Source: a virus
Direction: 5' to 3' (one strand)
DNA length: 64,000 nt
Virus record (IMG/VR): IMGVR_UViG_3300045120_000051
Span: 5,981-69,980 of that record
Both the position numbers and the translations under genes were made by a program. Shown one piece after another: positions 15,110 to 34,357 of this stretch; positions within the stretch are counted from its first letter, which is position 1; each line of letters starts with the position of its first letter. The notes beneath the pieces were generated by a model that was not told where the DNA came from, did no database searches, and saw only the letters and a list, made by a program, of their open reading frames with translations.

Positions 15110-15285
15110 TCTATCTGTTAATGACGTTACTCGTAATTGTTCCTCTCGCTATGCACATCGACGCATGCAACCTGCATGTGTGGGCGGTTGATAGCATGGG
15201 CGACGAGATAGATCGGGAGAGGTGGCGGTGTGAGCCGTTCTATCGCTACTGCAAATTCATGTCTTGGCCGTTACGATTGTTTTAA
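15106..15285 (+). CDS. Small membrane protein
   Basis: N-terminal hydrophobic helix, ATGA overlap. Confidence 0.45.
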   Translation: MIYLLMTLLVIVPLAMHIDACNLHVWAVDSMGDEIDRERWRCEPFYRYCKFMSWPLRLF

Positions 15286-15286
15286 T

Positions 15287-16957
15287 GTGACCACGTCCAC
15301 CATCGACAGGCCGAGGATCGAGCGCATCGGCAAGATGATAGCCGAGCACCACAGACGCATGGCCCGGAAGGCGCAGAGCGGGCCGGGTGGGCTGATGGAG
15401 TTCATCCGGTACTACTGGCATGTTTTGGAGCCTGAGACGCCGCTGGTCGAGGGCTGGACCATGGAGGCCATCTGCGAGCACCTTGAGGCCGTTACGGCAG
15501 GGAGAATCAAACGGCTGCTGATCAACGTCTCGCCAGGGAGTTGCAAGTCGCTAATCGTCAATGTGTTCTGGCCTGCGTGGGAAGCTGGGCCGATGGATAT
15601 GGCGCATCTGCGCTACGTGACGTTCTCCTACTCGGCCAGCTTGACCATGAGGGACAATGGCCGTTACCGGGACCTCATCGTTAGCCGTGAGTATCAGGAA
15701 CTGTGGGGCAAGCGTGTCCGGCCCATCAAGATCGGGGAAATGAAGATCAGCAATGACCACCAGGGCTGGAAGCTCGCCTCGTCGGTTGGCGGCGTTGGAA
15801 CTGGAGAACGTGGCGACCGGGTTATTCTGGACGATCCGCACAACGTCAAAGAGGCCGAATCGGACGTGGTACGTGATGAGACGATCCGGTGGTTTCGTGA
15901 ATCTATGTCCAACCGCCTGAACAGCCTGGAAACCGGCGTTATCATCGTGATCATGCAGCGGGTGCATGAAGAGGACATCAGCGGGATCATTTTGTCGCTG
16001 GGGCTGGAATACGATCATCTGATGATTCCGATGGAGTATGACTGGTATCGCCAGACCAATGATGATGGGTCACCGCAGCGGACCTCAATCGGCTGGTATG
16101 ACCCTCGATGGGCTGAAACACCGGAGGAATGCGACAAGTCGCTGGCGTGGCCAGAGCGGTTTCCTCCCGCGGTTATCGAGAGCACGAAGCACGTTGTGGC
16201 CCCCTTCGCTTGGGCCAGCCAGTACCAACAGAGCCCTGAGCCTCGTGGCGGTGGCATCTTCAAGCGGGAGTGGTGGCTGACGTGGGCTCCGCCTGACGGC
16301 AAGTTTCCTGAGTTCGAGTACATCGTGGCTAGCCTCGACAGCGCCTTTACGGAGAACGAGCAGAACAATCCCAGTGCGATGACGGTGTGGGGGGTGTGGC
16401 TGAACGATCAGAAGAAACGCCGGCTGATGCTGATCAACGCATGGCGGAAGTTCCTGCCGATGCATGGGCCTCGGGTGGAGAAGCAGCCTAACGAACTGGT
16501 CCAGGTCTATCGCCAGCGATCCTTGCAGCATTGGGGGCTTGTGGAGTGGTGCGCCGATACGTGCCGCCGGTTCAAGGCTGACAGGCTGCTGATCGAGGCC
16601 AAGACTAGCGGTATCACGGCCGGCCAGGAACTCGCCCGGCTTCACGGCCGCGAGGGCTGGGCGGTGCAAATGTGTCCTGTGAAGGGGGATAAGGTTGCCC
16701 GTGCCCTTGCGGTTCAGCCGACGTTCTCCCAAGGTATGGTTTACGCCAACGAGCGGCTGGACTGGGCGGAAATGGTCATTGACGAGATGGCTAAGTTTCC
16801 AAAAGGCAAGTATGATGACCTGACCGACAGCGCCACGATGGCGATTAAACACCTCCGCGACATTGGTCTAGCGCAGACTGACGAGGAAGCCGTGGCGGAG
16901 GAAATGGACCGGGTACGGCACCGGCCGAGGCTGCGGCCCCTCTATCCGACCGCCTAA
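15287..16957 (+). CDS. terL: Terminase large subunit
   Basis: LLINVSPGSCKS (Walker A), VILDDP, MQRVHE.D, YQQ.P, nuclease SLDSA, IE.K.SG, FPKGKYDD.TD; start uncertain. Confidence 0.95.
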   Translation: MTTSTIDRPRIERIGKMIAEHHRRMARKAQSGPGGLMEFIRYYWHVLEPETPLVEGWTMEAICEHLEAVTAGRIKRLLINVSPGSCKSLIVNVFWPAWEAGPMDMAHLRYVTFSYSASLTMRDNGRYRDLIVSREYQELWGKRVRPIKIGEMKISNDHQGWKLASSVGGVGTGERGDRVILDDPHNVKEAESDVVRDETIRWFRESMSNRLNSLETGVIIVIMQRVHEEDISGIILSLGLEYDHLMIPMEYDWYRQTNDDGSPQRTSIGWYDPRWAETPEECDKSLAWPERFPPAVIESTKHVVAPFAWASQYQQSPEPRGGGIFKREWWLTWAPPDGKFPEFEYIVASLDSAFTENEQNNPSAMTVWGVWLNDQKKRRLMLINAWRKFLPMHGPRVEKQPNELVQVYRQRSLQHWGLVEWCADTCRRFKADRLLIEAKTSGITAGQELARLHGREGWAVQMCPVKGDKVARALAVQPTFSQGMVYANERLDWAEMVIDEMAKFPKGKYDDLTDSATMAIKHLRDIGLAQTDEEAVAEEMDRVRHRPRLRPLYPTA

Positions 16958-19023: not shown

Positions 19024-19291
19024 AACACCTGTTCAATCAGACCTAGGCCGCGCCGTCAGCCACGATCCTAACCAGGACTGGCCCGACAAGATCGAGATTG
19101 CGGCCTATTGGGGCAAGCGCAAACGCTGGATTGCGATTGACGCCGACCAGTTTTTCGGGCGCAACACGCATGGGGCTCCGATGTCGGGGGAGCAGTTGAT
19201 TGCGGCGGTCGATCGGCTGCGTCGGATGGGGCCGGACCCTGTAGAGCGGTCGTTCGCTGAGATCCGGGATGAGGCCAAGGGCAAGAAATGA
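19016..19291 (+). CDS. Hypothetical protein
   Basis: ATGA-coupled to portal gene. Confidence 0.6.
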   Translation: MPETPVQSDLGRAVSHDPNQDWPDKIEIAAYWGKRKRWIAIDADQFFGRNTHGAPMSGEQLIAAVDRLRRMGPDPVERSFAEIRDEAKGKK

Positions 19292-21633
19292 CCATGCCGG
19301 CATCTGAGGGCCTGCAAGTCGTTATCCAGGCCGACGACAAGGATGCCGTGCGCGTTGACCCGGTGACGGGCACCATTGAGACGGACACGGATGACGGCGG
19401 CGTGGTAGTCCAACTAGACGCCCACCGCGCCAGTGAAGGCGCAGATGCCGATGATCCCGAGGAATTCTACAAGAACCTAGCCCTTGAGCCGGACATGGCG
19501 TCTCGGCTCAGCATCATCGCGGATGACCTCTACCAGTCCATATCGGCTGACAATGACAGCCGTGGCAACATGGATGCCATCGAGGCCCGCGGCCTTGAGT
19601 TGATGGGGATCAAACTACAGGAACCAAATTCCGGCGTTGGCGATACCTCGGCCCCACTGGAAGGCATGTCGAGTGTCACCAACCCACTGCTGTTGGATGC
19701 CTGCTTGCGGAGTTGGGCCAACGCAGTGGGGGAACTGTTGCCGGCCAATGGGCCCGTGAAGGTCAAGGACGACGGGGAGGAAACCAACGCCGAGGATGAT
19801 CTGGCCGACGCTCTTGAGCGGGACTTCAATCATTGGTTCACGGTTTCGGCCCCGGAGTATTATCCCGACACGTCGCACATGCTGTTGTGGGGCACGCACT
19901 TCAAGGGCTCCGGCTTCAAGAAGATTTACCGCTGTCCGTTACTGCGGCGCCCGACCTCCAAGCAGGTATCCAGCAAGGACTTAATCGTCAGTGATACTGA
20001 GACGGATTTGAAATCCTGCGCCCGCATCACGCATAGTATCAGAATGCGACCATCCGTGATGAAGCGGATGCAAATGATTGAAGCATATAGGGATATTCCA
20101 CTCGCCCAGCCGACGCCCACGCCGAATGCGGTGGACGAGAAGATTGCCGGCATCCAAGGGACGGCACCGAATAACACAAGACCAGAGGACCAGCCCTACA
20201 CGCTTTGGGAGAGCCAATGCGAGTTGGATTTGGATGAATATGCTCCTGACGAGTTCAAGGGGAAGGGCATCCCACTTCCGTATCTGGTGACGCTGGACAA
20301 GGACAGCCGCGAGGTCTTGGCGATCCGCAGGGATTGGCAGATTGGCGATGACCAGTGCAATCGACGCCGGATGTACGTCAGGTATCCATACGTTCCTGGC
20401 CCAGGCTTTTACGGCACTGGCCTATTGGGCATTTTGGGCAATTCCACTGCGGCGATGACGGCGGCGTGGCGTGAGGCGCTAGACGCCGGGATGTTTGCCT
20501 CGTTCCCCGGTGGGCTCATGGCCAAACTGGGGACACGGCAGAATACCAGCAATTTCCGTGTTGCACCGGGCGAGTTTGCGGCTGTCGAGACTTCGGGCTT
20601 GCCGATCAATCAAGTCGTGATGGGGATGCCCTACCACGACGTGACGCCCGGCTTGATGGCGCTGATGGACAAGATCACGGCACAGGCTGAGAAGGTCGGC
20701 GGTGCCGCGAATACGCCAACGGCAGAGGGTGTGGCGAATACGCCGGTCGGCACAATGCTGGCGCAGATCGAGCAGGCGACCAAGGTGATGTCGGCCGCTC
20801 ACAAGGGCATGCATCAGGCGCAGAGCGAGGAAATCGAGCTAATCGCTGAACTGTTCCGGGAGAGCCCCGAGGACTTCTGGCGCGCTAACAAAGTTGCTCC
20901 GAAAGACTACTGGAACGAACAAAAGTTCATTCAGGCACTGAACGACTGCAATCTTGTTCCGGTGTCCGACCCGAATGTGCCGAGCCACATCCACCGCGTG
21001 ATGAAGGCGGTAGCGTTGGTTCAGTTGATGGCAGTCCCACAGTTTGCCACGCGCCTTGACCCGAAAGAAGTTCTGCTGCGTGTGCTGCGGGCGATGAAAG
21101 AGGACAGCGTTGGGCTAGTGGTCGATCCTCCGCCGAATGCTGGGACAGACCCGAAGGAGATAGAAGCCCAATCCAAGATCATTGTGGCGAAGACCAAGGA
21201 GAACGAGGCGAAGGCCAAACTGGCAATGCAGCCACAAGAACTGGCTGCTAAGCAGGAAGAATTCCAGACCAAGCGGGATCTTGCCACGGTGGACCTTGCG
21301 CGTGAGAAAATAATCCACCAGTCTGATGCCACGCAAGCGGCGGCCAAGATGGCGATGGCCGACCGTGAGCACCAGTTAAAGTCCACCGATCAGGCATTGA
21401 CCGCAGTTAAGACCATCTCGGATGTCTCTAAGGCCGCGCATGACAAGACCATCGGAGTAGCGCAGCATGGGCTTGCTACGGACCAAGCGCAGCACGGTCA
21501 GGCGATGGACGTTGCGAAGCACGGTCTGGACCTCGGACAGGCGGCGCATGATAGGACGATGGCCGAGAAGCAGCACGAGCTAGACAAATACGTTGCCAAG
21601 CATCCTCCGAAGCCTGCGAAGCCCAAGAAATGA
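19288..21633 (+). CDS. Portal protein (P22/podovirus-like, long helical C-terminus)
   Basis: 781 aa after terL; ELLPA.GPVK, G.GFKK.Y, Y.Y.PG.GFYG.GL, PVGT.LA.IE motifs. Confidence 0.88.
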   Translation: MTMPASEGLQVVIQADDKDAVRVDPVTGTIETDTDDGGVVVQLDAHRASEGADADDPEEFYKNLALEPDMASRLSIIADDLYQSISADNDSRGNMDAIEARGLELMGIKLQEPNSGVGDTSAPLEGMSSVTNPLLLDACLRSWANAVGELLPANGPVKVKDDGEETNAEDDLADALERDFNHWFTVSAPEYYPDTSHMLLWGTHFKGSGFKKIYRCPLLRRPTSKQVSSKDLIVSDTETDLKSCARITHSIRMRPSVMKRMQMIEAYRDIPLAQPTPTPNAVDEKIAGIQGTAPNNTRPEDQPYTLWESQCELDLDEYAPDEFKGKGIPLPYLVTLDKDSREVLAIRRDWQIGDDQCNRRRMYVRYPYVPGPGFYGTGLLGILGNSTAAMTAAWREALDAGMFASFPGGLMAKLGTRQNTSNFRVAPGEFAAVETSGLPINQVVMGMPYHDVTPGLMALMDKITAQAEKVGGAANTPTAEGVANTPVGTMLAQIEQATKVMSAAHKGMHQAQSEEIELIAELFRESPEDFWRANKVAPKDYWNEQKFIQALNDCNLVPVSDPNVPSHIHRVMKAVALVQLMAVPQFATRLDPKEVLLRVLRAMKEDSVGLVVDPPPNAGTDPKEIEAQSKIIVAKTKENEAKAKLAMQPQELAAKQEEFQTKRDLATVDLAREKIIHQSDATQAAAKMAMADREHQLKSTDQALTAVKTISDVSKAAHDKTIGVAQHGLATDQAQHGQAMDVAKHGLDLGQAAHDRTMAEKQHELDKYVAKHPPKPAKPKK

Positions 21634-22007: not shown

Positions 22008-22649
22008 TTGGCCCACCCCTACAATAGCGTTCGTCAGTCTCGCGTCGAGCATAGCCGCGCCGGTACTCTCACCAAGGGCTACGCATCCGGCGGTGCCGTG
22101 GTCGAGCGCGCCCGCGGTGGTCGAACGAAGGGCACAAACGTCAACGTGATTATCTCGCCGTCCGCCGGACAGGCTGCGCCCCCTCCACCCATGCCCATGG
22201 CTGGCCCCGTAGCCGCCCCTCCAATGCCCCCGCCGAGGCCGCCCATGGCCCCGCCGCCTGGGGTTGGCATGGTGCCCCCCGGTGGGCCTCCGATGCCTCC
22301 TGGCGGCCCTATCCGCAGCACGGGTGGCAGGACGGGCTACAAGAGCGGTGGAGTGGTTCCTGGTCCAGCCTGGAAGGAAGGGCTGCGTAATGGGACGCAG
22401 GTAACTCATGGCCCCGGCAAGATGGATGGAAAGGATATTGGCCGTCCCCGCGCGATAACCTACGCCAAGGGTGGTTCTGTTGATGCTCCGCAACGGGAGG
22501 AAGCAAATCAGCCAAGGCGAGCCACGGGCGGTGCTGTCGAGCACCCCATGAAGGGTGGCCGAGCGCCGCATCTGCCCGGTGGGGCGGGCGGTGGTCTTGC
22601 ACGGATTGCCAAGCAGCACCGCGGCAAGGTGGGAGGCAAGGCGATCTGA
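22008..22649 (+). CDS. Pro-rich basic protein with repeated xAxGGxV motifs
   Basis: YASGGAV, YKSGGVV, YAKGGSV, RATGGAV; RBS AGGAGG, TTG start. Confidence 0.75.
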   Translation: MAHPYNSVRQSRVEHSRAGTLTKGYASGGAVVERARGGRTKGTNVNVIISPSAGQAAPPPPMPMAGPVAAPPMPPPRPPMAPPPGVGMVPPGGPPMPPGGPIRSTGGRTGYKSGGVVPGPAWKEGLRNGTQVTHGPGKMDGKDIGRPRAITYAKGGSVDAPQREEANQPRRATGGAVEHPMKGGRAPHLPGGAGGGLARIAKQHRGKVGGKAI

Positions 22650-22819
22650 TGCCCGATACCGAAAACAAATGGCCTTTCACGGAAGTAGATCGTCGCGTTG
22701 ACGACGGCCCATATCTTATTGAAATAACTCAGGAGATTGGCGGATCAACTGTTCACGCTCAGTTCACCGTTGATCCAAGATGGCTCGCTGCCATTGAGGC
22801 ACCTGTCGATGACTGCTGA
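22649..22819 (+). CDS. Hypothetical 56-aa protein
   Basis: Hand translation MPDTENKWPF...; TGATG coupling. Confidence 0.4.
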   Translation: MPDTENKWPFTEVDRRVDDGPYLIEITQEIGGSTVHAQFTVDPRWLAAIEAPVDDC

Positions 22820-23036
22820 ATCCCCCGTCCGCATGTTTGCCCTAGACGACCACCGCACACCAAAGCGGCTGGCGGACAAGATGGCTGCGGAGCGTGACAA
22901 GGCCATCGAGGCGCTGCGGTTCGCGCAGGACTGGGCCGACTTCAAGCGGCGTTCAGGGTTTATCGCTGGCCTGGAGGCGGCTATCGCTACCTGCAATGAG
23001 ATCAACGAAGAACTATCCGGCAAACAGGGGAGATAA
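22809..23036 (+). CDS. Hypothetical head-module protein
   Basis: Helical 75 aa ORF before GroES. Confidence 0.6.
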   Translation: MTAESPVRMFALDDHRTPKRLADKMAAERDKAIEALRFAQDWADFKRRSGFIAGLEAAIATCNEINEELSGKQGR

Positions 23037-23038
23037 AT

Positions 23039-23455
23039 TTGGCTCGATCCAATGTTATGGGCAAGATGCGGCTTATTGCCGAATCGACGCTTGATGCGAA
23101 GGCGGCTTTGCTCAAAGAATTAGGTGACCTGTCTGGCGTCGAGGTTTTGCATAGTCAGGTATTGGTCGCCACCCGCATTGCCAACGCCAAGACGGCAGGC
23201 GGGGTTTTCCTTCCCGACAGTGCCATCCGCGAAGATCAGTTTCAGGGCAGTATCGGGCTTGTCATTGCTATCGGTCCTGGCGCCTTTCGGGATGGTCCGA
23301 TTGCTGAATTCCACGGGATCAAACTCAAACTCCACGATTGGGTGATGTTCCGCCCCTCGGATGGCCTGCAATTGGCCATTCGCGAGGTTCCCTGCCGGTT
23401 GTTCGAGGATACCGGCATCAAGATGCGGGTTAAAGATCCAAGTTTGTTCTGGTGA
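23039..23455 (+). CDS. groES: GroES-like co-chaperonin
   Basis: KTAGG.FLPD...G.VIAIGP.A...D.V.F. Confidence 0.85.
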   Translation: MARSNVMGKMRLIAESTLDAKAALLKELGDLSGVEVLHSQVLVATRIANAKTAGGVFLPDSAIREDQFQGSIGLVIAIGPGAFRDGPIAEFHGIKLKLHDWVMFRPSDGLQLAIREVPCRLFEDTGIKMRVKDPSLFW

Positions 23456-25142: not shown

Positions 25143-26795
25143 GTGCCCAAACTCGTCATCAACATCATCACGCGCAACCGTCCCCACCTGATTGTGGAGA
25201 CGGTTGAGAATTTCTTGGCTCAGATGACGACCGCGGACTGCGGCCTCATGGTTTCTGTCGATGACGATGACGTAGCGACCATCAAAGCACTGGAGCCTTA
25301 CTGCGGGCGTCAACGGACCCACATTTCAATCCAGCCTCGCGAGGACGCTATTGGCGACAAGTGGTCCCGTAGTTTCCGTTCGTTTCCCGATGCCGGCGCG
25401 CACATGCTGGCCGCGGACTATGCGATCTGCAAGACCAAGGGCTTTGACAAGAAGATCATCGATGCAGTGGAGTTGCTGCCGGACAACATCGGGGTGATCG
25501 GCGGCAAGTTCTGCAATGCATCGTTTTCGGCGTTCCAGGTGGTGACGCGGGGGCTGGCGAGGCGCATGGGCTTCGTCTACCCGCCCTACTTTCCCTACTG
25601 GTTTGTTGATCATTGGGTTGACGATATCGCCCGGATGATCGGACGGCTGGTCTATGTGGACGTTGACATTGACGCCGTGTCTCGCAAGCCGCCGACGCAG
25701 GAAATGCGGGACTTGGTGTTTTGGTCTACGTTCTTTGATCTGTGCCGGGGGCGGCGGCACAAATGTGCTGAACGCATCCTTGATGATAGCGACACCAGGG
25801 TGTGGCTTAAGTCCATAATGGTCGGCAATTTCGAGATCACTGATGTCCGCTCCAAATGGATCAACGATTGCGTCCGTGCCAGTGCGGCTCATGTCGAGAA
25901 CGCCATTGGCGCTGGCCCTCCCGACGAACGCTATCTGCGCTCGCTGGACGCAGCCAAGGCCATGATCCCGGAACTTGTCCAGGAAATGAAGGATGCCGGC
26001 GAGGACGTGTCGGCATGGATACCGCGCATGACCACGAACGTATCGCCCATCCGCAAATCAACCGGACCTCAGATGAAAAAGATTTTGCTGTTTGTCCCAG
26101 CCTTTGGGCAGATGATGTCCTGCACCACGGTGTCAACCATTATCCAGTTGATGCAGGTTTTACCGTCCAAGGCCATCGCAGGAGGATTTGGGACGCTCTC
26201 CTACCCCGACATTGCCGAGATGAGGGACGCCGTGCTCTCCCGGTGGTACGACCACATGACGGACTACACGCATCTGCTATTTATCGATGCGGACATGGGC
26301 TTTGCCCCCGAATTGGTCCTGGACATGCTGTTGTTCGACCAGCCATTGGTCGGTGCGATCTACCGCAAGCGGATCGAGCCGCCGCAGTGGGCCGCCTCAG
26401 GGAGCGGAGGGCCTACGACAGCTAGGACGGGAGATTTTATTGAGGTCGATGGCCTCGGCATGGGTGTCTGCCTTATCCGCCGTGATGTGGTGACAACCAT
26501 GCTGGAAAAGATGCCAGAATTGTCTGACGACAAGATCGCCATGCTGTCGATCCGGGACCTCATGGACCCTGCGGCAACGCGGATTATTAGGGCATTTGAC
26601 CCGATTCAGGGTCCGTCTGGTCGTGTGTCGGAAGACCTCTCTTTCTGCCAGCGGTGGCGTGAGTGTGGTGGAACCGTTTGGGGTGCGATTGGGCATTCTG
26701 TTTCGCATGTTGGAATGTATGATTTTTGCGGGAGGTACGCGGATGTGGCAGATAAAGCCCCGATAGTGCCGCCCGCGTTGCAAGCTGCTGAGTGA
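25143..26795 (+). CDS. Double GT-A/GT2-like glycosyltransferase
   Basis: Domain 1: TRNRP, SVDDDD, WFVD.W. Domain 2: THLLFIDADM, G.G.CLIRRDV, SEDLSFC.RW..CGG. Confidence 0.85.
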   Translation: MPKLVINIITRNRPHLIVETVENFLAQMTTADCGLMVSVDDDDVATIKALEPYCGRQRTHISIQPREDAIGDKWSRSFRSFPDAGAHMLAADYAICKTKGFDKKIIDAVELLPDNIGVIGGKFCNASFSAFQVVTRGLARRMGFVYPPYFPYWFVDHWVDDIARMIGRLVYVDVDIDAVSRKPPTQEMRDLVFWSTFFDLCRGRRHKCAERILDDSDTRVWLKSIMVGNFEITDVRSKWINDCVRASAAHVENAIGAGPPDERYLRSLDAAKAMIPELVQEMKDAGEDVSAWIPRMTTNVSPIRKSTGPQMKKILLFVPAFGQMMSCTTVSTIIQLMQVLPSKAIAGGFGTLSYPDIAEMRDAVLSRWYDHMTDYTHLLFIDADMGFAPELVLDMLLFDQPLVGAIYRKRIEPPQWAASGSGGPTTARTGDFIEVDGLGMGVCLIRRDVVTTMLEKMPELSDDKIAMLSIRDLMDPAATRIIRAFDPIQGPSGRVSEDLSFCQRWRECGGTVWGAIGHSVSHVGMYDFCGRYADVADKAPIVPPALQAAE

Positions 26796-26815
26796 TGGTT
26801 TAGGATGTGATTTGC

Positions 26816-26875
26816 GGTAAGGCTCGCCTAGGTGGGGTCCGGCACGGTTGGGCGAGGCATGGTATGGCGAGGTTG
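26816..26875 (+). repeat. GGY-NN pentamer array 1 (12 units)
   Basis: ggtaa ggctc gccta ggtgg ggtcc ggcac ggttg ggcga ggcat ggtat ggcga ggttg. Confidence 0.9.
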
Positions 26876-26910
26876 CTTGACGTGACCTTGAATTGATGAT
26901 TGGCTATCCA

Positions 26911-27004
26911 AATCGCGGCGATCAACGCGATTCGAAACGCGGCACCATCGACAACTTCCCCGTCGTCCGGTGTCGCTGAAAAGTGACCCCTGATTCCGCG
27001 TTTC
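26911..27004 (+). ncRNA. Candidate structured RNA leader
   Basis: AATCGCG/CGCGATT hairpin; GAAACGCGG/CCGCGTTTC stem enclosing smaller hairpins. Confidence 0.4.
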
Positions 27005-27025
27005 CGGGCTTGATCGGCCGGGCGC

Positions 27026-27125
27026 GGGGGAGACCGTCTGCGGCGCGGCTTGGCATGTCATGGTGCGTGTCCGGTCGGGTAAGATTAGGCTTGGTATGGC
27101 AGGGTCTCCTTTCATCAAAAGGAGA
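27026..27125 (+). promoter_or_regulatory. GGY-NN array 2 (about 12 units) enclosed by a stem that competes with an RBS-sequestering hairpin
   Basis: GGAGACC (27029-35) pairs with GGTCTCC (27103-09); TCTCCTTT (27105-12) alternatively pairs with AAAGGAGA (27118-25). Confidence 0.7.
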
Positions 27126-27135
27126 GGACGATTAA

Positions 27136-27750
27136 ATGACTAAGACCTCAGCTAAGGTTGTTCATATCAGTGAACCGACTGATGGTGGCAATGAGACAAT
27201 CGAACACTCAGAGCCTTACGCCGTCGCCGTAACTGTCGAAGGCTCCGCCGATTTTCTGTTTCATCGATGGAATCCGGAAGCCGTCGATGAGAAGGCCAAA
27301 GCCGCGAAGAACTCGAAGGGCAAAAAAACCGATAACATCGAGAGTTACGTTTATCGGCTTGACAACGGTGAACTCGCCATCCCCGGCGAATATATGCGGG
27401 GTAGTATCATCAATGCCGCCAAGTTCCGGCAAGACCCACGTTCACCGCGCAAGTCTGCGGCCGATTTGTTCAAGGCTGCAATCGTCGTCACGACGCCGCT
27501 TGCAGCGCTTGGCGTGAGTGATTGGGACTATCTCGACAAGCGCCGCGCGATGGTCCAACGGCAGGGCATCAACCGCGTGCGGCCGGCAATGCGCGCCGGC
27601 TGGACGTGCGAGTTCCATCTGTTGGTGATGCTGCCGGAATACGTTGATCGCGGCGCGTTGCGCGAGACAATCGAAAGCGCGGGGCGGCTCATCGGCCTTG
27701 GTGATTTCCGGCCGACATTTGGCCGGTTTGGCATCGTCAACTTCGAATAA
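27136..27750 (+). CDS. Stand-alone RAMP/Cas7-like RNA-binding protein
   Basis: N-terminal strand VTVEG.A.FL.H, IPG..MRGSI..AA, C-terminal Gly-rich loop AG..IGLGDFRP.FGRF; strong RBS; flanked by pentamer arrays. Confidence 0.8.
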   Translation: MTKTSAKVVHISEPTDGGNETIEHSEPYAVAVTVEGSADFLFHRWNPEAVDEKAKAAKNSKGKKTDNIESYVYRLDNGELAIPGEYMRGSIINAAKFRQDPRSPRKSAADLFKAAIVVTTPLAALGVSDWDYLDKRRAMVQRQGINRVRPAMRAGWTCEFHLLVMLPEYVDRGALRETIESAGRLIGLGDFRPTFGRFGIVNFE

Positions 27751-27758
27751 GGAGATCT

Positions 27759-28006
27759 GGTCGGGTGAGGCTGGGTGTGGCGAGGTCGGCCCTGGTCCGG
27801 CGTGGCATGGTGAGGCTAGGTTTGGTGAGGACGGGCGCGGCATGGCGCGGCAGGGCTAGGTCTGGCAAGGCTAGGTATGGTGAGGTACGGGCCGAAGGGC
27901 CGGTGTGGTACGGTCGGGTTCGGTGAGGCAAGGCTGGCTTCGGTTCGGTAGGCTCTGGTATGCTATGGTAAGGTGGGGCGAGATGGGGCTTGCTGAGGTG
28001 AGGATT
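27759..28006 (+). ncRNA. GGY-NN pentamer arrays 3a (26 units, 27759-27888) and 3b (21 units, 27902-28006), putative guide RNAs
   Basis: Strict 5-nt phase within each block; blocks separated by GGCC-GAAG-GGCC mini-hairpin; intergenic. Confidence 0.75.
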
Positions 28007-28011
28007 TAATC

Positions 28012-29397
28012 TTGAGGACTGTTTTATCACATGGTGTGTTTGATCCAATGCACATTGGGCATGTATTGCATTTGATCGAGGCACGGGCACAAGGCGACAG
28101 GCTTGTCGTAAGCGTTACAGCCGATGAGTTTGTTGCTAAAGGTCCAGATAGGCCCATCTTTAAGGGGGCTGAACGCGCGCAGGCATTGCGGGCTTTAAGT
28201 TGCGTTGATGACGTGATCATTAGTGAGTCTTATGATGCTGTCGATGTAATCAACAAGGTTAGGCCAAATCTTTTTGTTAAGGGTGTCGATTATAAAGATG
28301 TAAACGATGCTGCATTACAGCGAGAAATAGCCGCTGTGGAGGCTCACGGAGGTCGTTTCTATACCACGCATTCTGATAGATGGTCATCGTCCCGCATTGT
28401 AAACGGCGCGAGATTTGATGATGAAGCGATGGCTTATCTTGAGGGCGCCAGGGCGCGAGGGTTTTCTGACCGGATTTTGGCGGCATTCGAACGTGCAGAC
28501 AAGCTGAAAATCGCGTTCGTGGGAGAAACGATCATTGACCGCTACCACTACGTTTCCCCGCTGGGGAAGCCGGTGAAGGAATTCTGCCTTGCCACGGTCG
28601 AGGCCAAGGAATCGGAGGAGTTCCTAGGCGGCGTCATTGCGGCCAGCAAACACGCGGAATGGCCCCATGTGAACGTGGTGACCAGCGGTCAGTTCATCCG
28701 CAAGACGCGGTATGTGGACGTGGCGTTTAACCGGAAGCTGTTCGAGGTCTATTCTGAGCGCGAGATTGAGTTGAACGAAAAGCAGAGGACGGCGTTCCGC
28801 AGTGATCTAGTCGATGCTTTGAAGGCGGTTGATGCTGTTGTCGTGCTGGATTTTGGGCATGGACTCCTAACATCCGAAGAGCGTAGCTTCATTAGATCGG
28901 CTGGGTTCAGGAAGACAAAAAAGAAACAAAAGCCCATATTTACTGCCATTAACTCTCAATCCAACACTGCCAATTTTGGGTTTAATCCAGTTACGTTGCA
29001 TCCTGGCGCAAATTTTGTCTGTGTTGACGATCCAGAGGCGAGGCTTGCTACCGGGATGCAGAATGATCCAATGGGCGACGTTCTAACGTGCCTATCCGAC
29101 AAGATGTGCTGTTACCAGTTCATTGTCACGCACGGTCGGAATGGATGTACCTCCTTCACGAGATACAAGAATCCAGCCGTTCACATCCCCGCCTTCGCCA
29201 CCAACGGCATTGACACCATGGGGGCGGGAGACGCATTTCTGGCAGTGACAGCGCCGCTTGTTGCCGCGGGGCTTGGGCTGGAAGAGGCAGGCTTTGTGGG
29301 CAACGTGGCCGGCGCCATCAAGGTTGGCATCCTCGGCCATCGTCGCCATGTTGGTCGGCAGGAACTTATCCAGAGCGTGGAGGCGCTGCTTAAATGA
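28012..29397 (+). CDS. RfaE/HldE-like bifunctional nucleotidyltransferase + PfkB sugar kinase
   Basis: GVFD.MHIGH, V.VTAD..V.KG..RP, KG.DY, SSS.I; GETIID.Y, DFGHG, DTMGAGDAF. Confidence 0.9.
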   Translation: MRTVLSHGVFDPMHIGHVLHLIEARAQGDRLVVSVTADEFVAKGPDRPIFKGAERAQALRALSCVDDVIISESYDAVDVINKVRPNLFVKGVDYKDVNDAALQREIAAVEAHGGRFYTTHSDRWSSSRIVNGARFDDEAMAYLEGARARGFSDRILAAFERADKLKIAFVGETIIDRYHYVSPLGKPVKEFCLATVEAKESEEFLGGVIAASKHAEWPHVNVVTSGQFIRKTRYVDVAFNRKLFEVYSEREIELNEKQRTAFRSDLVDALKAVDAVVVLDFGHGLLTSEERSFIRSAGFRKTKKKQKPIFTAINSQSNTANFGFNPVTLHPGANFVCVDDPEARLATGMQNDPMGDVLTCLSDKMCCYQFIVTHGRNGCTSFTRYKNPAVHIPAFATNGIDTMGAGDAFLAVTAPLVAAGLGLEEAGFVGNVAGAIKVGILGHRRHVGRQELIQSVEALLK

Positions 29398-29579
29398 CGG
29401 ACAAGGATTGGGAAATACCGAGCCCTCGCAAGTACCTTGCTATAAAATACTCAACCCCGCCTGGAACTTGCAAGTGTGGTGAGTGCCAATTGGTGCCGCC
29501 CGAAATGCTGATGGTATGGGATGCTGAAATCCAGAGCCTCAAAGATCAGGTTAAACACCTGAGAATTATAAAACCATGA
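29394..29579 (+). CDS. Hypothetical protein
   Basis: ATGA-coupled on both sides. Confidence 0.55.
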   Translation: MTDKDWEIPSPRKYLAIKYSTPPGTCKCGECQLVPPEMLMVWDAEIQSLKDQVKHLRIIKP

Positions 29580-29794
29580 CCGACCTCCCCCCTCTCCACG
29601 TCATCGTCAAGTTCGGGAAGGATATCCCGCTATCCATCCAAGGGCCGGCGTTGCTGGAGATGGAGCGGCATCTGCGCAAGCTGGCGGCGGAGACGGTGTG
29701 CGGGCCCCTGTGGATTGAAGTCTTTAAGGAGGCCAAGGGGGATGATAGTAAGTTGCGCAGCGCCATGACCGAAAAGCAAAGATCAAAACTATGA
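29576..29794 (+). CDS. Hypothetical protein
   Basis: ATGA-coupled on both sides. Confidence 0.6.
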   Translation: MTDLPPLHVIVKFGKDIPLSIQGPALLEMERHLRKLAAETVCGPLWIEVFKEAKGDDSKLRSAMTEKQRSKL

Positions 29795-30954
29795 CCTCGC
29801 CCATGCCCGATTTTGTCGATCACGTTCTCGGCGTTGCTCCCGATTCCCCGTCCGTTCACAATCTTCAATTGGATGGGACAAAAATAGCTTGGTATCGAGA
29901 TCGCGTTGAGGCATGGGCTCGGGGCGAGCGCATCGCTCCGATCACGATGGACGTGGCCTGGACTCGCAAGTGCCAAGCAGCGTGCGGATTCTGCTATGCG
30001 AGTCTACAGTCCAGTGAAGGCGGCATCGATGTAACCCGGCAGGAAGCATTCGACTTCTTGGAAGACGCCGCAGCCATCGGCGTCAAGGGCGTCAGCCTCA
30101 TAAGCGACGGGGAAAGCACTGGCGTCCCCTACTATGCCGAATCGATCAAGTACGGTGCGTCCCTTGGTCTGCAAATGGGGATCAGTTCAAACGGGGTGAC
30201 GCTCACCCGAGATGTTCTGGAGGACATCCTGCCGTCGCTGAGTTACCTCCGGTACAATTTCAGCGGTGGCAAACGCAAGCGTTACGCTGAGATCATGGGG
30301 TTGAAGCAGATTTGGTTTGACCGCGTGGTGTCAAGCGTCAAGACCTCGATGGAGATCAAACGGCGCGACAACCTCCCTTGCACGGTCAACATGCAATTTG
30401 TCGTCCGTCCTGTAGACGGGGACCAGATTGTACCGTTTGCTAAACTCGCCGCCGAAATCCGCCCTGATTACGGAATCCTGAAGCACTGTTCCGATAGCTC
30501 GACCAATGACCTCGGTGTGGATTACCGAAAGTACAGCGAATTATTCCCGTTGTTTCAGGAGGCCGAAGGCTACTCGGACAAGGATTTTCGCATTGCGGTC
30601 AAGTGGTCGCGTATCCAGGACGAGGGCAAGCGAGATTACCAACGATGCTATGGGCCTCCGTTCATCCTGCAAATGTCCGGCAATGGCTTGATTGCTCCTT
30701 GCGGGCAGAAGTTCAATTCCAAGTACCAGAAATTCCACATGGGCCGGTTGTCGGAGATGCGTTTCCGGGACATCTTCAAGAGTGACCGCTACTGGGACAT
30801 CATCAACTATCTCGCCAGCGAGGACTTCGACGCGCAGAAGGATTGCGGCGAGAACTGCTTGCAGACAAACAGCAACTCGTGGCTGAATCGCTATGTGAAC
30901 GGGCAAGCGCAGTTTGCGACAACGCCCCCACCCCCGCAGATCGGTTTTCTGTGA
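29791..30954 (+). CDS. Radical SAM protein with SPASM/twitch-like domain
   Basis: CQAACGFC; C.GP......GNG...PC; C..NC. Confidence 0.9.
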   Translation: MTSPMPDFVDHVLGVAPDSPSVHNLQLDGTKIAWYRDRVEAWARGERIAPITMDVAWTRKCQAACGFCYASLQSSEGGIDVTRQEAFDFLEDAAAIGVKGVSLISDGESTGVPYYAESIKYGASLGLQMGISSNGVTLTRDVLEDILPSLSYLRYNFSGGKRKRYAEIMGLKQIWFDRVVSSVKTSMEIKRRDNLPCTVNMQFVVRPVDGDQIVPFAKLAAEIRPDYGILKHCSDSSTNDLGVDYRKYSELFPLFQEAEGYSDKDFRIAVKWSRIQDEGKRDYQRCYGPPFILQMSGNGLIAPCGQKFNSKYQKFHMGRLSEMRFRDIFKSDRYWDIINYLASEDFDAQKDCGENCLQTNSNSWLNRYVNGQAQFATTPPPPQIGFL

Positions 30955-31721
30955 CATTCGACATCGCCGCTGCCAAGGAACGGTGCCGGCGCTATCGGCG
31001 GCGCATTCTGGACATCTCGCAGCAGGTTTCGGCGCTTCACATTGCCAGCGCCTATTCATGCACCGAGATTGTGGATTGCATCTACCACGGTCTGATGCGA
31101 CCGCAGGAGACGTTCATCTTGTCCAAGGGACACGCCGGCATCATGCAGTATGTGGTACTGGAAGATCTCCGGGTGCTCAACAGAAGTGACCTTGAGGCTT
31201 ATTGCACCCGAAATGGGGTGCTTGGAACGCATCCCGACTACGGCAATCCGGGGATTGCTGCCTCGACAGGCTCCCTCGGTCACGGCCTTGGGATGGCGGT
31301 GGGAATGGCTCTGGCCAACCGTTCGGAGCGGGTTTACGTGGTTCTCAGCGATGGGGAGTTGCAGGAGGGATCGACGTGGGAAGCCATCTTGCAGGCGTCG
31401 TCGCTACGGTTGAACAATCTCACGGTCTTTGTGGACAACAACGACTTCCAGAGTTTGCAGCGAACGTCGGTCACTCACCCATCGTTTTATCCATTGGCTG
31501 CTAAATTTGTGGCCTTCGATTGGGGTGTGGTTGAAGTTGAGGACGGCCACGATAGTTGGGCCTTATACAAGGAATCTAAGCACGGGCATCTTTTCAGGCC
31601 CTTTGTGGTGATTGCGAAAACGACCAAGGGGAAGGGCGTCAGCTTCATGGAGAACATTCCCATCTGGCACTACAGGTCGCCCAATGTGGAGGAATACGCC
31701 AAGGCGATAGCCGAGCTATGA
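30951..31721 (+). CDS. Transketolase N-terminal (TPP-binding) subunit
   Basis: LSKGHA, TGSLGHGL..AVG, SDGELQEG.TWEA, T.KGKGVSFME..WH; GTG start overlaps upstream TGA. Confidence 0.92.
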   Translation: MTFDIAAAKERCRRYRRRILDISQQVSALHIASAYSCTEIVDCIYHGLMRPQETFILSKGHAGIMQYVVLEDLRVLNRSDLEAYCTRNGVLGTHPDYGNPGIAASTGSLGHGLGMAVGMALANRSERVYVVLSDGELQEGSTWEAILQASSLRLNNLTVFVDNNDFQSLQRTSVTHPSFYPLAAKFVAFDWGVVEVEDGHDSWALYKESKHGHLFRPFVVIAKTTKGKGVSFMENIPIWHYRSPNVEEYAKAIAEL

Positions 31722-33442: not shown

Positions 33443-34357
33443 ATGCCCGTCGCCCTCGCAAATATCCGCAGCGAATTGTTGCCCGGCCTGTTCGACGTGC
33501 GTGGGTCATACGACATGATCCCGCGACAGTGGGACAAGGTGTTCACCACCCACAAGTCGGAAATGGCCGTCGAGCGTTCGACGCAGATGGCCTTTGTGGC
33601 GTTGCCGTTCCTGAAAGATGAAGGGGCCGCCACGCAATTCGATAACAATGCTGGCGAACGCTTCACCTGGGCCTTCACGCACATCGAAGTTGCCTTGGGG
33701 TACGCGATCACGAGAAAAGCGATTGACGATAACCTCTACAAGGCACAGTTCAATCCGACAAACCTGAAGCTCCAGGAAGCCTTTGCGCAGTTCAAGGAAA
33801 TCCAGTCCGCGAACATCCTGAACCTCGGGACTACCTACAACTCAGCACAGATCGGAGATGGCGTTGCGCTGTTCTCGACGGCGCATCCCTACGACGGCGG
33901 CACATGGGCCAACACGTCGTCCGTGCCGAAGTCGCTGAACGAATCCTCGATGCTGGCCAACATGACGAACGTCCGCACGCAGTTCGTCAACGAACGCGGC
34001 CTGCGTATTTTGTCCAGGGCGCGTCGGCTTGTCGTGCCGCCCAATCTCGAACAAGTCGCAATCCGCCTCACCAAGACGGAGTTGCGCCCTGGCACCGCAG
34101 ACAACGACGTGAACGCCATCCTCACCCTCTCCGGTGGGCTGCCCGAAGGCTTCATCGTCATGGACTTCCTGACCTCGAACTTCGCGTGGTTCTTGACCAC
34201 GAATATCGAGGGATTGATTCACATGCTCCGCATCCCGTATGAGAGCGATATGTGGGTCGATAATGTCACGGACAACTTGCTTGTAAAGGCTTACGAACGC
34301 TACAGTTTTGGCGATAACGATCCTCGGGCCGCGTGGGGCGAGTTTCCCACGAGTTGA
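33443..34357 (+). CDS. Major capsid protein (Mu gpT-like, HK97 fold)
   Basis: L.PGL, K.EG....D, ALGYAIT..AI.DNLY, GDGVALFSTAHP, LVVPP.L...A.RL, ERYSFG..D.R. Confidence 0.9.
   Translation: MPVALANIRSELLPGLFDVRGSYDMIPRQWDKVFTTHKSEMAVERSTQMAFVALPFLKDEGAATQFDNNAGERFTWAFTHIEVALGYAITRKAIDDNLYKAQFNPTNLKLQEAFAQFKEIQSANILNLGTTYNSAQIGDGVALFSTAHPYDGGTWANTSSVPKSLNESSMLANMTNVRTQFVNERGLRILSRARRLVVPPNLEQVAIRLTKTELRPGTADNDVNAILTLSGGLPEGFIVMDFLTSNFAWFLTTNIEGLIHMLRIPYESDMWVDNVTDNLLVKAYERYSFGDNDPRAAWGEFPTS

What the first reader, a model, noticed from the sequence alone, without database searches (positions are those of the whole stretch)
26816..28006. Lone RAMP/Cas7-like gene flanked by GGY-NN pentamer arrays: candidate non-CRISPR RNA-guided system
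Seen: a 204-aa ORF (27136-27750) with RAMP-type features (IPG..MRG helix motif, terminal Gly-rich loop GLGDFRP.FGRF) and no other cas genes, repeats or spacers. It is surrounded on the same strand by about 70 pentamers in four blocks, with positions 1-3 nearly constant (GGC/GGT) and positions 4-5 freely variable. Established: RAMP/Cas7 proteins polymerise along RNA with a fixed nucleotide step. Inference: one protomer binds each pentamer by its GGY and displays NN, so information sits in the dinucleotides. From memory, this matches the recently reported phage VIPR systems; I cannot verify that here.
Basis: partly seen in the sequence, partly recalled or inferred. Interest (0 to 1): 0.97.

Follow-up and report, generated by a model that had tools for sequence, protein, structure and literature searches.

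The report
Phage VIPR RNA-guided silencing locus
This is a phage copy of the recently described VIPR system, a small Cas7-like protein flanked by GGY-NN pentamer guide-RNA arrays that probably silences a competing phage, so it is a real but already known kind of system.

Summary
ORF 27136-27750 (204 aa) sits among 70 same-strand pentamers in four blocks: G1 70/70, G2 61/70, Y3 69/70, positions 4-5 about 0 bits. These chains are far longer than in any shuffle.

The interpretation also holds. The protein matches the solved SUSP1 Vipr protein (PDB 36pp; E 3.8e-6 alone, 5.7e-11 as a profile). It keeps the published GGY-contact residues. It folds as a minimal Cas7/Csm3 RAMP. Of 122 distinct relatives, 114 carry such arrays on the gene's strand and 0 on the other strand.

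The host record is a complete 69,980-bp phage. I found no CRISPR array, no conserved accessory (vap) gene and no self-target.

This is therefore a member of the VIPR family described in three 2026 bioRxiv preprints, not a new kind of system.

Three things go beyond a plain match:
- A covariation-supported structured leader hides the vipr ribosome-binding site.
- The locus is a vap-less cassette with long uninterrupted arrays.
- There is one candidate natural target. Thirteen units (27749-27813) match 25 of 26 NN bases, in frame, in an HTH_17 early gene of another phage. This is suggestive only, with chance about 0.02-0.1.

Expression could not be tested.

The parts
26816..26875 (+). Array A: 12 GGYNN units (11 GGY, one degenerate GCCTA), upstream of the vipr leader. 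Candidate upstream vrRNA.
   Evidence: No target found for units 4-12 in IMG/VR.
26912..27034 (+). Conserved structured RNA leader: 4 helices, 32 pairs. The 3' strand of the long helix carries a Shine-Dalgarno-like GGGGAGAC, paired to CUUCCCC.
   Evidence: Alignments A2/A3 and RNAalifold. Model R1 finds it in 15 of 100 sources, always on the + strand just 5' of vipr. 97.3% of cells are paired, 20 of 32 pairs show compensatory changes, 0 of 500 shuffles reach this, and slid controls give 36-46% paired. No Rfam match at E<=1.
27042..27107 (+). Array B: 5 + 7 GGYNN units with a 1-nt register slip. It lies between the leader and the vipr start, and is present in 6 of the 15 leader-bearing loci.
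27106..27124 (+). Hairpin CUCCUUU/AAAGGAG that pairs most of the vipr Shine-Dalgarno AAGGAGAGG (27119-27127).
   Evidence: Read from the sequence and folded. Equivalent CUCC...GGAG hairpins with different stems occur in L009, L001, L055 and L059.
27136..27750 (+). vipr: a 204-aa minimal RAMP with an RRM core, a thumb hairpin at about residues 132-152 and a G-loop at 187-197.
   Evidence: PDB 36pp SUSP1 Vipr, E 3.8e-6 and 5.7e-11 by profile. phrog_4652, E 4e-16. AlphaFold2 pLDDT 84.7. Foldseek top hits are Csm3/Cas7. 5539 relatives.
27749..27813 (+). Candidate 13-unit guide: two non-GGY units (AAGGA, GATCT) plus units 1-11 of array C. Under the 1-nt skip rule, 25 of 26 NN bases match an HTH_17 gene in two IMG/VR contigs.
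   Evidence: The gene is identified and its module.
27759..27888 (+). Array C: 26 GGYNN units (24 GGY), starting 9 nt after the vipr stop codon.
   Evidence: A relative's contig differs here only at pentamer positions 3-5.
27889..27901 (+). Short spacer, G GGCC GAAG GGCC: a possible 4-bp hairpin that shifts the register between arrays C and D.
   Evidence: Read from the sequence. GC hairpins also follow array runs in L035 and L009. Function is inferred.
27902..28001 (+). Array D: 20 units (15 GGY, 5 degenerate).
   Evidence: Identical in a contig of run X4, and 1 difference in run X2.
28002..28011 (+). GGATTTAATC: a tail-like end of array D. Together with the last units it forms the GAGGTGAGGA ribosome-binding site for the next gene (TTG at 28012).
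   Evidence: Read from the sequence. Similar GGATACTTTGTT.. endings close each of five downstream arrays in L001. Only 35 of 372 array ends start with GGAW, so its role as a conserved tail is inconclusive.

Best explanation
The locus is a self-contained VIPR (Viral Interference Programmable Repeat) cassette in a complete 70-kb tailed phage.

Shown here:
- The 204-aa protein is a homologue of the structurally solved SUSP1 Vipr.
- It has a minimal Cas7-like RAMP fold and keeps the GGY-binding residues.
- It is flanked on its own strand by four arrays with 70 GGYNN units in all.
- The same arrangement recurs in nearly all relatives, with different NN.

Inferred from the published mechanism:
- The arrays are transcribed and cut into vrRNAs.
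- One Vipr protomer binds each repeat, hides the GGY and presents the NN.
- The filament pairs with double-stranded DNA that reads NN-x-NN-x (one base skipped per unit) and blocks transcription there.

The probable role is competition with other phages or mobile elements. One candidate target is the HTH_17 (excisionase-type) first gene of the replication module of an unrelated phage. It is matched by 13 units at 25 of 26 bases, in frame, with the skipped base at the codon wobble position.

This cassette has no accessory vap gene. The vipr ribosome-binding site is sequestered by conserved RNA structure, which suggests that Vipr synthesis is translationally controlled.
For: Homology to Vipr:
- phmmer against PDB gives 36pp_D 'SUSP1 Vipr protein', E 3.8e-6.
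- A profile of 26 relatives gives E 5.7e-11 over profile positions 27-196 and chain residues 6-188.
- The SUSP1 contact residues named in 10.64898/2026.04.26.720927 (sections 5 and 6) align to H43, K58, E85, Y86, R149, D190, F191 and R192 of the window protein. The SUSP1 residues are H17, K33, E71, M72, R138, D177, W178 and R179. Six are identical and two conservative (my reading of the alignments).

Fold:
- AlphaFold2 pLDDT 84.7, pTM 0.77.
- Foldseek against PDB: every listed hit is a CRISPR RAMP entry (Csm3/Cas7 of types III and VII, Cas7-11/gRAMP). The best is 6ifn_F at E 3.4e-7, and 144 hits have E<=1e-3.
- BFVD top hits are viral RAMP-like proteins of about 200 aa, TM 0.57-0.69.

Arrays.

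Relatives:
- 166 loci were fetched. 15 were dropped because my locator motif failed, leaving 122 distinct genes.
- 114 of 122 have a + strand chain of 6 or more GGY and 0 of 122 have one on the - strand. Among loci with 500 nt of flank on both sides, 77 of 80 have a chain.
- The three full-flank loci examined by eye that lacked a chain (L030, L050, L118) hold degenerate arrays.

NN variability:
- 4465 pentamers carry 0.03 and 0.01 bits at positions 4 and 5.
- L067, L069 and L070 have vipr 99.8-100% identical over the last 450 nt. They differ by 4 substitutions in 330 nt downstream, all at N4 or N5.
- A relative's contig in run X2 shows 17 listed differences in array C: 0 at GG, 6 at Y and 11 at NN.

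Phage context:
- The record is a complete virus record with direct terminal repeats.
- It has a terminase, a portal and a major head protein.

Targets:
- No self-target.
- The candidate target is supported.
Against: - Nothing shows that the arrays are transcribed or bound in this phage.
- vrRNA borders are unknown. Arrays C and D (26 and 20 units) exceed the 9-16 units described. They lack the pseudoknot tail of type II, and no hammerhead or other Rfam family was found.
- The strict consensus scan found no promoter in 26300-28000.
- Only one candidate target was found, and it is not secure. It came from 6 exact-core scans with 57 hits in all, and I put its chance at about 0.02-0.05, or up to about 0.1 with looser criteria.
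- Its first two units are not GGY.
- No second guide falls on the same contigs.
- The real 13-unit pattern hit 0 of 401 bacterial genomes, while the reversed control hit 2.
- Sequence similarity to SUSP1 Vipr is remote.
Confidence: 0.88

Rival explanations
1. It is a VIPR-family cassette, but it serves the phage's own regulation (or targets host genes or RNA) rather than competing elements. The arrays would be decoys or sponges, or timers of Vipr level, and the candidate target is a chance match.
For: - Only one candidate target was found, with chance about 0.02-0.1.
- The cassette sits inside an operon-like run of + strand genes, and array D supplies the ribosome-binding site of the next gene.
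- The leader and the hairpin sequester the vipr SD, so RNA-level regulation exists at the locus.
- The third preprint describes vrRNAs used as decoys (abstract).
Against: - No match above chance anywhere in the phage's own 69,980 bp under any skip rule.
- The NN strings vary rapidly between near-identical relatives, as expected for an arms race and not for fixed self-regulation.
- The published systems act on other elements.
Confidence: 0.07
2. The pentamer tracts act as DNA rather than as guide RNA, for example as two-tetrad G-quadruplex-prone tracts, iterons or recombination hot spots. On this view they only happen to lie beside a RAMP-like gene.
For: - GG every 5 nt on one strand could form G-quadruplexes (inference).
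- No RNA evidence is available for this locus.
Against: - The association with the gene is near universal and strand-specific: 114 of 122 loci on the + strand and 0 of 122 on the - strand.
- The neighbouring genes are otherwise unrelated. The largest shared neighbour cluster covers 16 of 123 loci, and the window's six flanking ORFs have no counterpart elsewhere.
- A pyrimidine is required at position 3, which a G-quadruplex does not need but the Vipr Y-pocket does.
- In SUSP1 the homologous tracts are sequenced RNAs that co-purify with Vipr.
Confidence: 0.03
3. It is a remnant or solo Cas7 of a degraded CRISPR-Cas system carried by a phage.
For: The closest solved folds are type III Csm3 and type VII Cas7.
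Against: - No CRISPR repeats in the window.
- No cas-protein match in PADLOC for the protein or four neighbours, and no Pfam or NCBIfam Cas7 model match.
- The best sequence match is Vipr, not any Cas7.
- The protein is a single minimal RRM, as described for Vipr.
Confidence: 0.01

Closest known systems
VIPR type II systems (Escherichia phage SUSP1, Pseudomonas fulva prophage); bioRxiv 10.64898/2026.04.26.720920, .720927 and 10.64898/2026.10.15.759431
   Same: - A homologous, phage-encoded protein of about 200 aa with conserved GGY-contact residues.
- Same-strand YNNGG/GGYNN arrays both upstream and downstream of vipr.
- Free NN positions.
- No self-target.
- The candidate target is a coding sequence read in frame with the skipped base at wobble, in a regulator or excision-type gene of another mobile element.
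   Different: - Only remote sequence similarity (E 3.8e-6 with the single sequence).
- No vap gene.
- Arrays of 20-26 uninterrupted units, against 9-16 units plus a pseudoknot tail.
- No repeated invariant tail in the window.
- A structured leader and a hairpin hide the vipr ribosome-binding site. The words 'leader', 'autoregulat' and 'Shine-Dalgarno' do not occur in this sense in the main texts of 720920 or 759431. 720927 was not word-searched.
Other VIPR types in the same preprint: stand-alone vipr, staggered overlapping vrRNA arrays, ribozyme-interspersed arrays (types I and V)
   Same: - A stand-alone vipr gene.
- Long continuous arrays that would have to be cut into adjoining vrRNAs.
- The text names six vap genes for seven types and assigns vaps to types II-VII, so a vap-less type (I, by my inference) exists.
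   Different: - No hammerhead or other ribozyme was found (Rfam, E<=1).
- The type could not be assigned. The tree, data S4 and figures S16-S19 are supplements or images that I could not see.
CRISPR type III Csm3 / type VII Cas7 backbone subunits
   Same: RRM core, thumb hairpin and glycine-rich loop. They polymerise on a guide RNA with a fixed step. Foldseek E 3.4e-7 to 1e-5, TM about 0.5.
   Different: - No CRISPR array, no other cas genes and no second domain.
- A 5-nt step with 3 bases hidden and 2 displayed, against a 6-nt step with 1 base flipped.
- The target is dsDNA read with gaps (published for SUSP1).

Membership tests
VIPR system | Vipr protein: sequence homologue of a characterised Vipr | tested here: met
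   PDB 36pp_D SUSP1 Vipr: E 3.8e-6 with the single sequence, and E 5.7e-11 with a 26-sequence profile, nearly full length.
VIPR system | Minimal RAMP fold: one RRM core, a thumb and a glycine-rich loop, with no second RRM | tested here: met
   The AlphaFold2 model (pLDDT 84.7) has a beta-hairpin at 132-152 and a loop at 187-197 before the last strand. Foldseek top hits are Csm3/Cas7. This is a predicted fold, not a solved one.
VIPR system | Residues that hold G1, G2 and Y3 and the skipped target base (SUSP1 H17, K33, E71, M72, R138, D177, W178, R179) | tested here: met
   They align to H43, K58, E85, Y86, R149, D190, F191 and R192 (read). H43, K58, Y86, R149 and R192 are invariant, and D190 is at least 90% conserved, in 26 relatives.
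VIPR system | Tandem YNNGG/GGYNN repeats (4 or more units) beside vipr on the same strand | tested here: met
   70 units in four blocks, above all shuffles. 114 of 122 relatives have them on the + strand and 0 on the - strand.
VIPR system | GGY conserved while NN is hypervariable among relatives | tested here: met
   0.03 and 0.01 bits at positions 4 and 5 in 4465 units. All 4 of 4 substitutions between near-identical loci fall at N4 or N5. A relative's contig shows 17 listed differences, none at GG. Positions 1-3 are enriched partly by the way chains were defined.
VIPR system | vrRNAs are expressed and co-purify with Vipr | not testable with these tools
VIPR system | Invariant structured 3' tail after each repeat tract | tested here: inconclusive
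   No repeated tail in the window. Array D ends in GGATTTAATC, which resembles the GGATACTTTGTT.. endings of five arrays in L001. Only 35 of 372 array ends begin with GGAW. The preprint says architectures differ between types.
VIPR system | Accessory vap gene next to vipr (typical, but not universal) | tested here: not met
   The largest neighbour cluster covers 16 of 123 loci. The window's six flanking ORFs match no neighbour of any other locus. Stand-alone vipr genes are reported in the preprint, so this does not exclude membership.
VIPR system | Natural target that fits the 1-nt skip rule, with no self-target | tested here: inconclusive
   No self-target. One candidate at 25 of 26 bases over 13 units, in frame, with chance about 0.02-0.1 (and my arithmetic). 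The other five scans gave nothing.
VIPR system | Encoded by a virus or provirus (typical) | tested here: met
   Complete 69,980-bp virus record with direct terminal repeats. Terminase, portal and head protein are present.
CRISPR-Cas (Cas7 of class 1) | CRISPR repeat-spacer array and further cas genes | tested here: not met
   No such repeats. No cas-protein match in PADLOC for the five proteins tested. No Cas7 family in Pfam or NCBIfam.

The most novel reading that the evidence does not exclude
This widespread clade is a vap-less, self-mobilising VIPR cassette with its own control circuit. It appears beside unrelated genes in contigs binned to many bacterial phyla.

A conserved structured leader, plus a second anti-SD hairpin placed directly after an inserted array, keeps vipr untranslated. 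Vipr binding to the adjacent GGYNN tract (or some other signal) would open it, matching protein supply to guide supply.

The long tail-less arrays would be cut into adjoining guides without a ribozyme or a Cas6. The first 13-unit guide would silence the excisionase-type early gene of a rival temperate phage.
Probability: 0.22. Interest if true: 0.7.

Novelty: new member of a known kind. Interest (0 to 1): 0.45.

Why it matters
VIPR was described only in 2026, and almost all experiments use one E. coli phage (type II).

This locus is a clean example from a distant, very abundant clade:
- 5539 relatives in the protein collection.
- Only one GenBank phage record holds a homologue, and there it is annotated as a helix-turn-helix regulator.
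- MAG contigs labelled from Planctomycetota to Pseudomonadota and Cyanobacteriota carry it.

It works with a single protein gene, so it may be the most minimal form of the system.

It offers three testable additions:
- How tail-less continuous arrays are turned into guides.
- Whether the conserved leader controls Vipr translation.
- A concrete predicted guide-target pair for a binding or repression assay.

It does not change the picture of what VIPR is.

Tried and rejected
Family and RNA searches:
- Pfam gave only a chance line (E 0.076). NCBIfam and PADLOC gave nothing for the protein.
- Rfam at E<=1 over 26000-28600 gave no hammerhead or any other family.
- The consensus promoter and terminator scan found nothing useful between 26300 and 28000. 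The TTGACG...GGCTAT upstream of the leader is my reading only.
- Folding the window's leader alone is not distinctive (z -1.28). The support comes from covariation.

Target searches:
- Own genome under all skip rules: best 80-90% on short windows, equal across rules, so chance.
- 845 kb of held relatives: at most 16 of 20 under every rule.
- IMG/VR exact cores: A units 4-12, 0 hits. C9-16, 6 hits, one of them (L187) at 17 of 36 outside the core but not contiguous. C12-19, 4 hits, and D1-8, 4 hits, with no extension. C19-26, 28 hits with no extension.
- 13-unit pattern with up to 3 mismatches in 401 genomes of one class: 0 hits, and the reversed control gave 2.
- Other guides on L174/L170: none above the null.
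- Relatives of the HTH_17 gene in IMG/VR: only the same two contigs.

Expression:
- No RNA holder listed for the stretch, so expression is untested.
- Parts of the stretch had no contig cover in runs X2-X5, and nothing is concluded from that.

Other:
- The tail motif GGAW at array ends occurs in 35 of 372 ends, so it is not general.
- The VIPR type could not be assigned because supplements and figures are not held.
Full report
**1. Observation**

ORF 27136..27750 (+) encodes 204 aa containing IPGEYMRG and a C-terminal GLGDFRPTFGRF.

In-phase parsing gives four blocks on the + strand:
- A, 26816-26875, 12 units.
- B, 27042-27066 plus 27073-27107, 5 + 7 units with a 1-nt slip.
- C, 27759-27888, 26 units.
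- D, 27902-28001, 20 units.

Over these 70 pentamers, position 1 is G in 70/70, position 2 is G in 61/70 and position 3 is C or T in 69/70. Positions 4 and 5 carry 0.04 and 0.03 bits.

Chains of 11, 6, 24 and 15 in-phase GGY compare with a maximum of 7 in 200 dinucleotide-preserving shuffles of the whole window. The maximum was 6 in 1000 shuffles of the local intergenic DNA. No chain of 5 or more lies on the - strand. Tandem Repeats Finder sees only fragments, because the units differ.

A period of 5 cannot be a coding periodicity. The short ORFs over the arrays are spurious.

**2. The protein**

Pfam, NCBIfam and PADLOC give nothing. PHROGs gives phrog_4652, function unknown, E 4e-16.

Against PDB sequences the only real match is 36pp_D, 'SUSP1 Vipr protein'. 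The E-value is 3.8e-6 for the single sequence. For a profile of 26 relatives (A1) it is 5.7e-11 over nearly the whole length.

I read those alignments against the contact residues given in the cryo-EM preprint (10.64898/2026.04.26.720927, sections 5 and 6):

| SUSP1 residue | Role in SUSP1 | Window residue |
|---|---|---|
| H17 | G1 contact | H43 |
| K33 | target backbone | K58 |
| E71/M72 | Y pocket, helix 1 | E85/Y86 |
| R138 | thumb, G2 | R149 |
| D177/W178/R179 | G-loop | D190/F191/R192 |

Most of these positions are invariant or nearly invariant in A1.

The AlphaFold2 model (pLDDT 84.7, pTM 0.77) has:
- an RRM-like beta-alpha-beta core;
- a long beta-hairpin at about 132-152, the thumb;
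- a loop at 187-197 before the last strand, the G-loop.

In Foldseek against PDB, every listed hit is a CRISPR RAMP entry: Csm3/Cas7 of types III and VII, or Cas7-11/gRAMP. The best is 6ifn_F at E 3.4e-7, TM about 0.5, and 144 hits have E<=1e-3. 6IFN chain E is one of the queries the VIPR authors started from. BFVD returns viral RAMP-like proteins of about 200 aa, TM 0.57-0.69.

**3. What is known**

VIPR is described in three bioRxiv preprints. What I read of each:

| Preprint | Parts read |
|---|---|
| 10.64898/2026.04.26.720920 | Outline, Results, Discussion, methods sections 18, 20 and 27, and passages that include the supplementary figure legends |
| 10.64898/2026.04.26.720927 | Outline, sections 5 and 6 |
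| 10.64898/2026.10.15.759431 | Outline, section 6, one word search |

Their model is as follows:
- Vipr is a minimal RAMP.
- vrRNAs are 9-16 YNNGG repeats plus a 3' tail.
- One protomer binds per repeat.
- The GGY is hidden and the NN pair with dsDNA, skipping every third base.
- The result is transcriptional silencing of competing phages or satellites.
- There are seven types with six vap genes.

Supplementary tables, data files and figure images were not available to me. The type of this locus therefore cannot be assigned.

**4. Relatives**

The protein collection holds 5539 relatives at E<=1e-3. I fetched 38 viral, 80 metagenome and 48 genome-contig loci.

Of these 166 loci, 15 were dropped because my peptide locator did not find the gene: L103-105, L120, L122, L124, L125, L127, L150, L151, L154, L158, L160, L161 and L164. 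The rest collapse to 122 distinct genes.
- 114 of 122 have a chain of 6 or more GGY on the gene's strand, and 0 of 122 have one on the other strand.
- Among the 80 loci with at least 500 nt on both sides, 77 have one.
- Three full-flank loci without a chain that I examined by eye (L030, L050, L118) hold visibly periodic but degenerate tracts.

In 4465 units, positions 4 and 5 carry 0.03 and 0.01 bits, and all 16 dinucleotides are used. The bias at positions 1-3 is partly built into the chain definition.

Three observations show NN variation at short range:
- L067, L069 and L070 have vipr 99.8-100% identical over the last 450 nt. They differ by 4 substitutions in 330 nt downstream, all at N4 or N5.
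- A contig of run X2 that overlaps the vipr 3' end and array C shows 17 listed differences in 27759-27816: none at GG, 6 at position 3 and 11 at positions 4-5. It also has several indels, and 39 more differences were not listed.
- Array D is identical in run X4 and has one difference in X2.

Aligners favour the GG register in repeats, so the X2 result is supportive rather than decisive.

MAG labels of the genome-contig loci span Phycisphaerae (many), Pseudomonadota, Acidobacteriota, Cyanobacteriota, Actinomycetota, Bacillota and others. Binning errors are possible.

Only one GenBank phage record has a homologue: DSL-LC04, 59% identity, annotated as a helix-turn-helix regulator.

**5. Context**

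The window is bases 5981-69980 of a complete 69,980-bp virus record with direct terminal repeats.

Genes identified:

| Coordinates | Annotation |
|---|---|
| 15230-16957 | terminase large subunit |
| 19288-21633 | portal |
| 23039-23455 | Cpn10-like |
| 25143-26795 | glycosyltransferase-like |
| 26816-28011 | the VIPR cassette |
| 28012-29397 | cytidylyltransferase + PfkB kinase (HldE-like) |
| 29791-30954 | radical SAM/SPASM |
| 30843-31721 | transketolase N-terminal part |
| 33443-34357 | major head protein |

No integrase and no HTH_17 gene was found in the phage.

No neighbour is conserved. The largest neighbour cluster covers 16 of 123 loci, and several top clusters appear to be spurious ORFs over the arrays (my reading). 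The window's six flanking ORFs match no neighbour of any other locus.

The unit that moves is therefore vipr plus its arrays, without a vap. The preprint assigns vaps to types II-VII and speaks of stand-alone vipr genes. A vap-less type therefore exists; that it is type I is my inference.

**6. Architecture particular to this clade**

*(a) The leader.* A conserved element of about 123 nt lies at 26912-27034, between array A and array B.
- With six sequences, RNAalifold predicts 32 pairs.
- A covariance model finds the element in 15 of 100 sources, always on the + strand just 5' of vipr.
- On that alignment 97.3% of cells pair and 20 of 32 pairs show compensatory changes. No shuffle out of 500 reaches this, and slid controls give 36-46% paired.
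- That alignment was fitted to the model, which favours the structure.

The 3' strand of the long helix is GGGGAGAC or AGGAGAC.
- In 9 of the 15 loci the vipr start codon follows 4-7 nt later, so this is the Shine-Dalgarno sequence and it is paired.
- In the other 6 loci, the window included, an array of 80-108 nt is inserted. A second hairpin (window 27106-27124, CUCCUUU/AAAGGAG) then pairs the new Shine-Dalgarno sequence, with different stems in different loci.

Rfam has no match. Word searches of the main texts of 720920 and 759431 found no mention of a vipr leader, autoregulation or Shine-Dalgarno. 720927 was not searched, and supplements were unseen.

*(b) The arrays.* Arrays C and D are long and lack a repeated tail. 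A 13-nt GC hairpin-like spacer separates them. Array D ends in GGATTTAATC and supplies the ribosome-binding site of the next gene. Relatives range up to 116 + 30 + 84 units (L011).

**7. Targets**

Under the published rule, the non-target strand reads NN-x-NN-x in the guide's order.

The phage has no self-match above chance, and the 845 kb of held relatives have none.

Six exact-core scans of IMG/VR gave 0, 15, 6, 4, 4 and 28 hits. I extended all 57 hits. Only one sequence extends, and it is present in two contigs (L170 and L174).
- Thirteen consecutive units at 27749-27813 match 25 of 26 bases. The match stops abruptly on both sides, and the genome search confirmed it (1 mismatch).
- The units are AAGGA and GATCT followed by units 1-11 of array C.
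- The site lies in a 74-aa HTH_17 (PF12728, E 1.3e-10) gene. It is in frame, on the peptide DLRDWVERLPAIE, with every skipped base at the wobble position.
- That gene heads a replication module: DUF3102, AAA_24, DUF669, a helicase, DUF6511 and Prim-Pol.
- The module belongs to a phage fragment unrelated to this one. Only the helicase is similar, at 26%.

Chance estimate:
- The empirical score tail on 2.7 million positions fits a per-base match rate of about 0.275.
- The reversed-pattern control gave 2 hits at up to 3 mismatches in 401 genomes, against 0 for the real pattern. This suggests a rate of up to about 0.30.
- With 57 hits and six ways to place five flanking units, the expected number of such matches is about 0.02-0.05 (my arithmetic). 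It may reach about 0.1, given that I would have accepted slightly different lengths.

No second guide falls on those contigs, which are 14%-complete fragments. I rate this candidate target as a lead, about even odds.

It resembles the published cases, where targets are lysis-lysogeny regulators and a satellite's excision recombinase, read at codon positions 1-2.

**8. Verdict**

The locus is a member of the VIPR family, so it is not a new kind of system.

Not shown for this locus:
- transcription and processing of the arrays;
- RNA binding by the protein;
- DNA targeting;
- the biological role.

The new points are modest.

Noticed in passing
window 26912-27034 (also L001, L003, L009, L012, L019, L035, L040, L042, L047, L048, L055, L059, L064, L074): Conserved structured RNA just 5' of vipr, with strong covariation (20 of 32 pairs compensatory). 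Its long helix pairs the Shine-Dalgarno sequence. No Rfam match. The words leader, autoregulation and Shine-Dalgarno were not found in this sense in the two VIPR main texts that I word-searched.
   Followed up: yes
L012 3388-3442, L019 2694-2748; also L013, L020, L021, L037, L038: An 11-unit GGYNN tract lies inside the vipr ORF, in frame. It encodes a 13-22-aa Gly/Ala/Ser-rich insertion just before the thumb hairpin. This is either a guide array embedded in coding sequence or an array-derived insertion.
   Followed up: partly
L011 2225-2963 and 3631-4050: Giant arrays beside a vipr homologue: 116 + 30 units upstream and 84 downstream, far beyond the 9-16 units described per vrRNA.
   Followed up: no
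window 25143-26795 and 28012-31721: The VIPR cassette sits inside a sugar-modification gene set between the scaffold-region genes and the major head gene. The set comprises a glycosyltransferase-like gene, a cytidylyltransferase + PfkB kinase (HldE-like), a radical SAM/SPASM gene and a transketolase N-terminal part. It may serve phage-directed heptose or glycan synthesis.
   Followed up: no
window 27997-28014: The last units of array D (GAGGTGAGGA) form the ribosome-binding site of the next gene, which starts at TTG 28012. Guide array and downstream gene are therefore probably co-transcribed.
   Followed up: no
GenBank OR003939.1 (Phage DSL-LC04) 22441-23046: This is the only GenBank phage record with a homologue (59% identity). 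There the gene is annotated as a helix-turn-helix transcriptional regulator, which looks like a misannotation of a Vipr.
   Followed up: no
L128 and L129 (one 343,696-bp scaffold of a cyanobacterial MAG): Two copies of the vipr cassette about 100 kb apart on one scaffold. The last 450 nt of the gene and the first 300 nt downstream are identical between them.
   Followed up: no
window 23039-23455: Phage-encoded Cpn10 (GroES-like) gene, Pfam E 1.8e-8, just upstream of the scaffold-like gene.
   Followed up: no
window 55562-55660: Three tandem 33-nt repeats (79-82% identical) inside the 1125-aa ORF 53427-56804.
   Followed up: no
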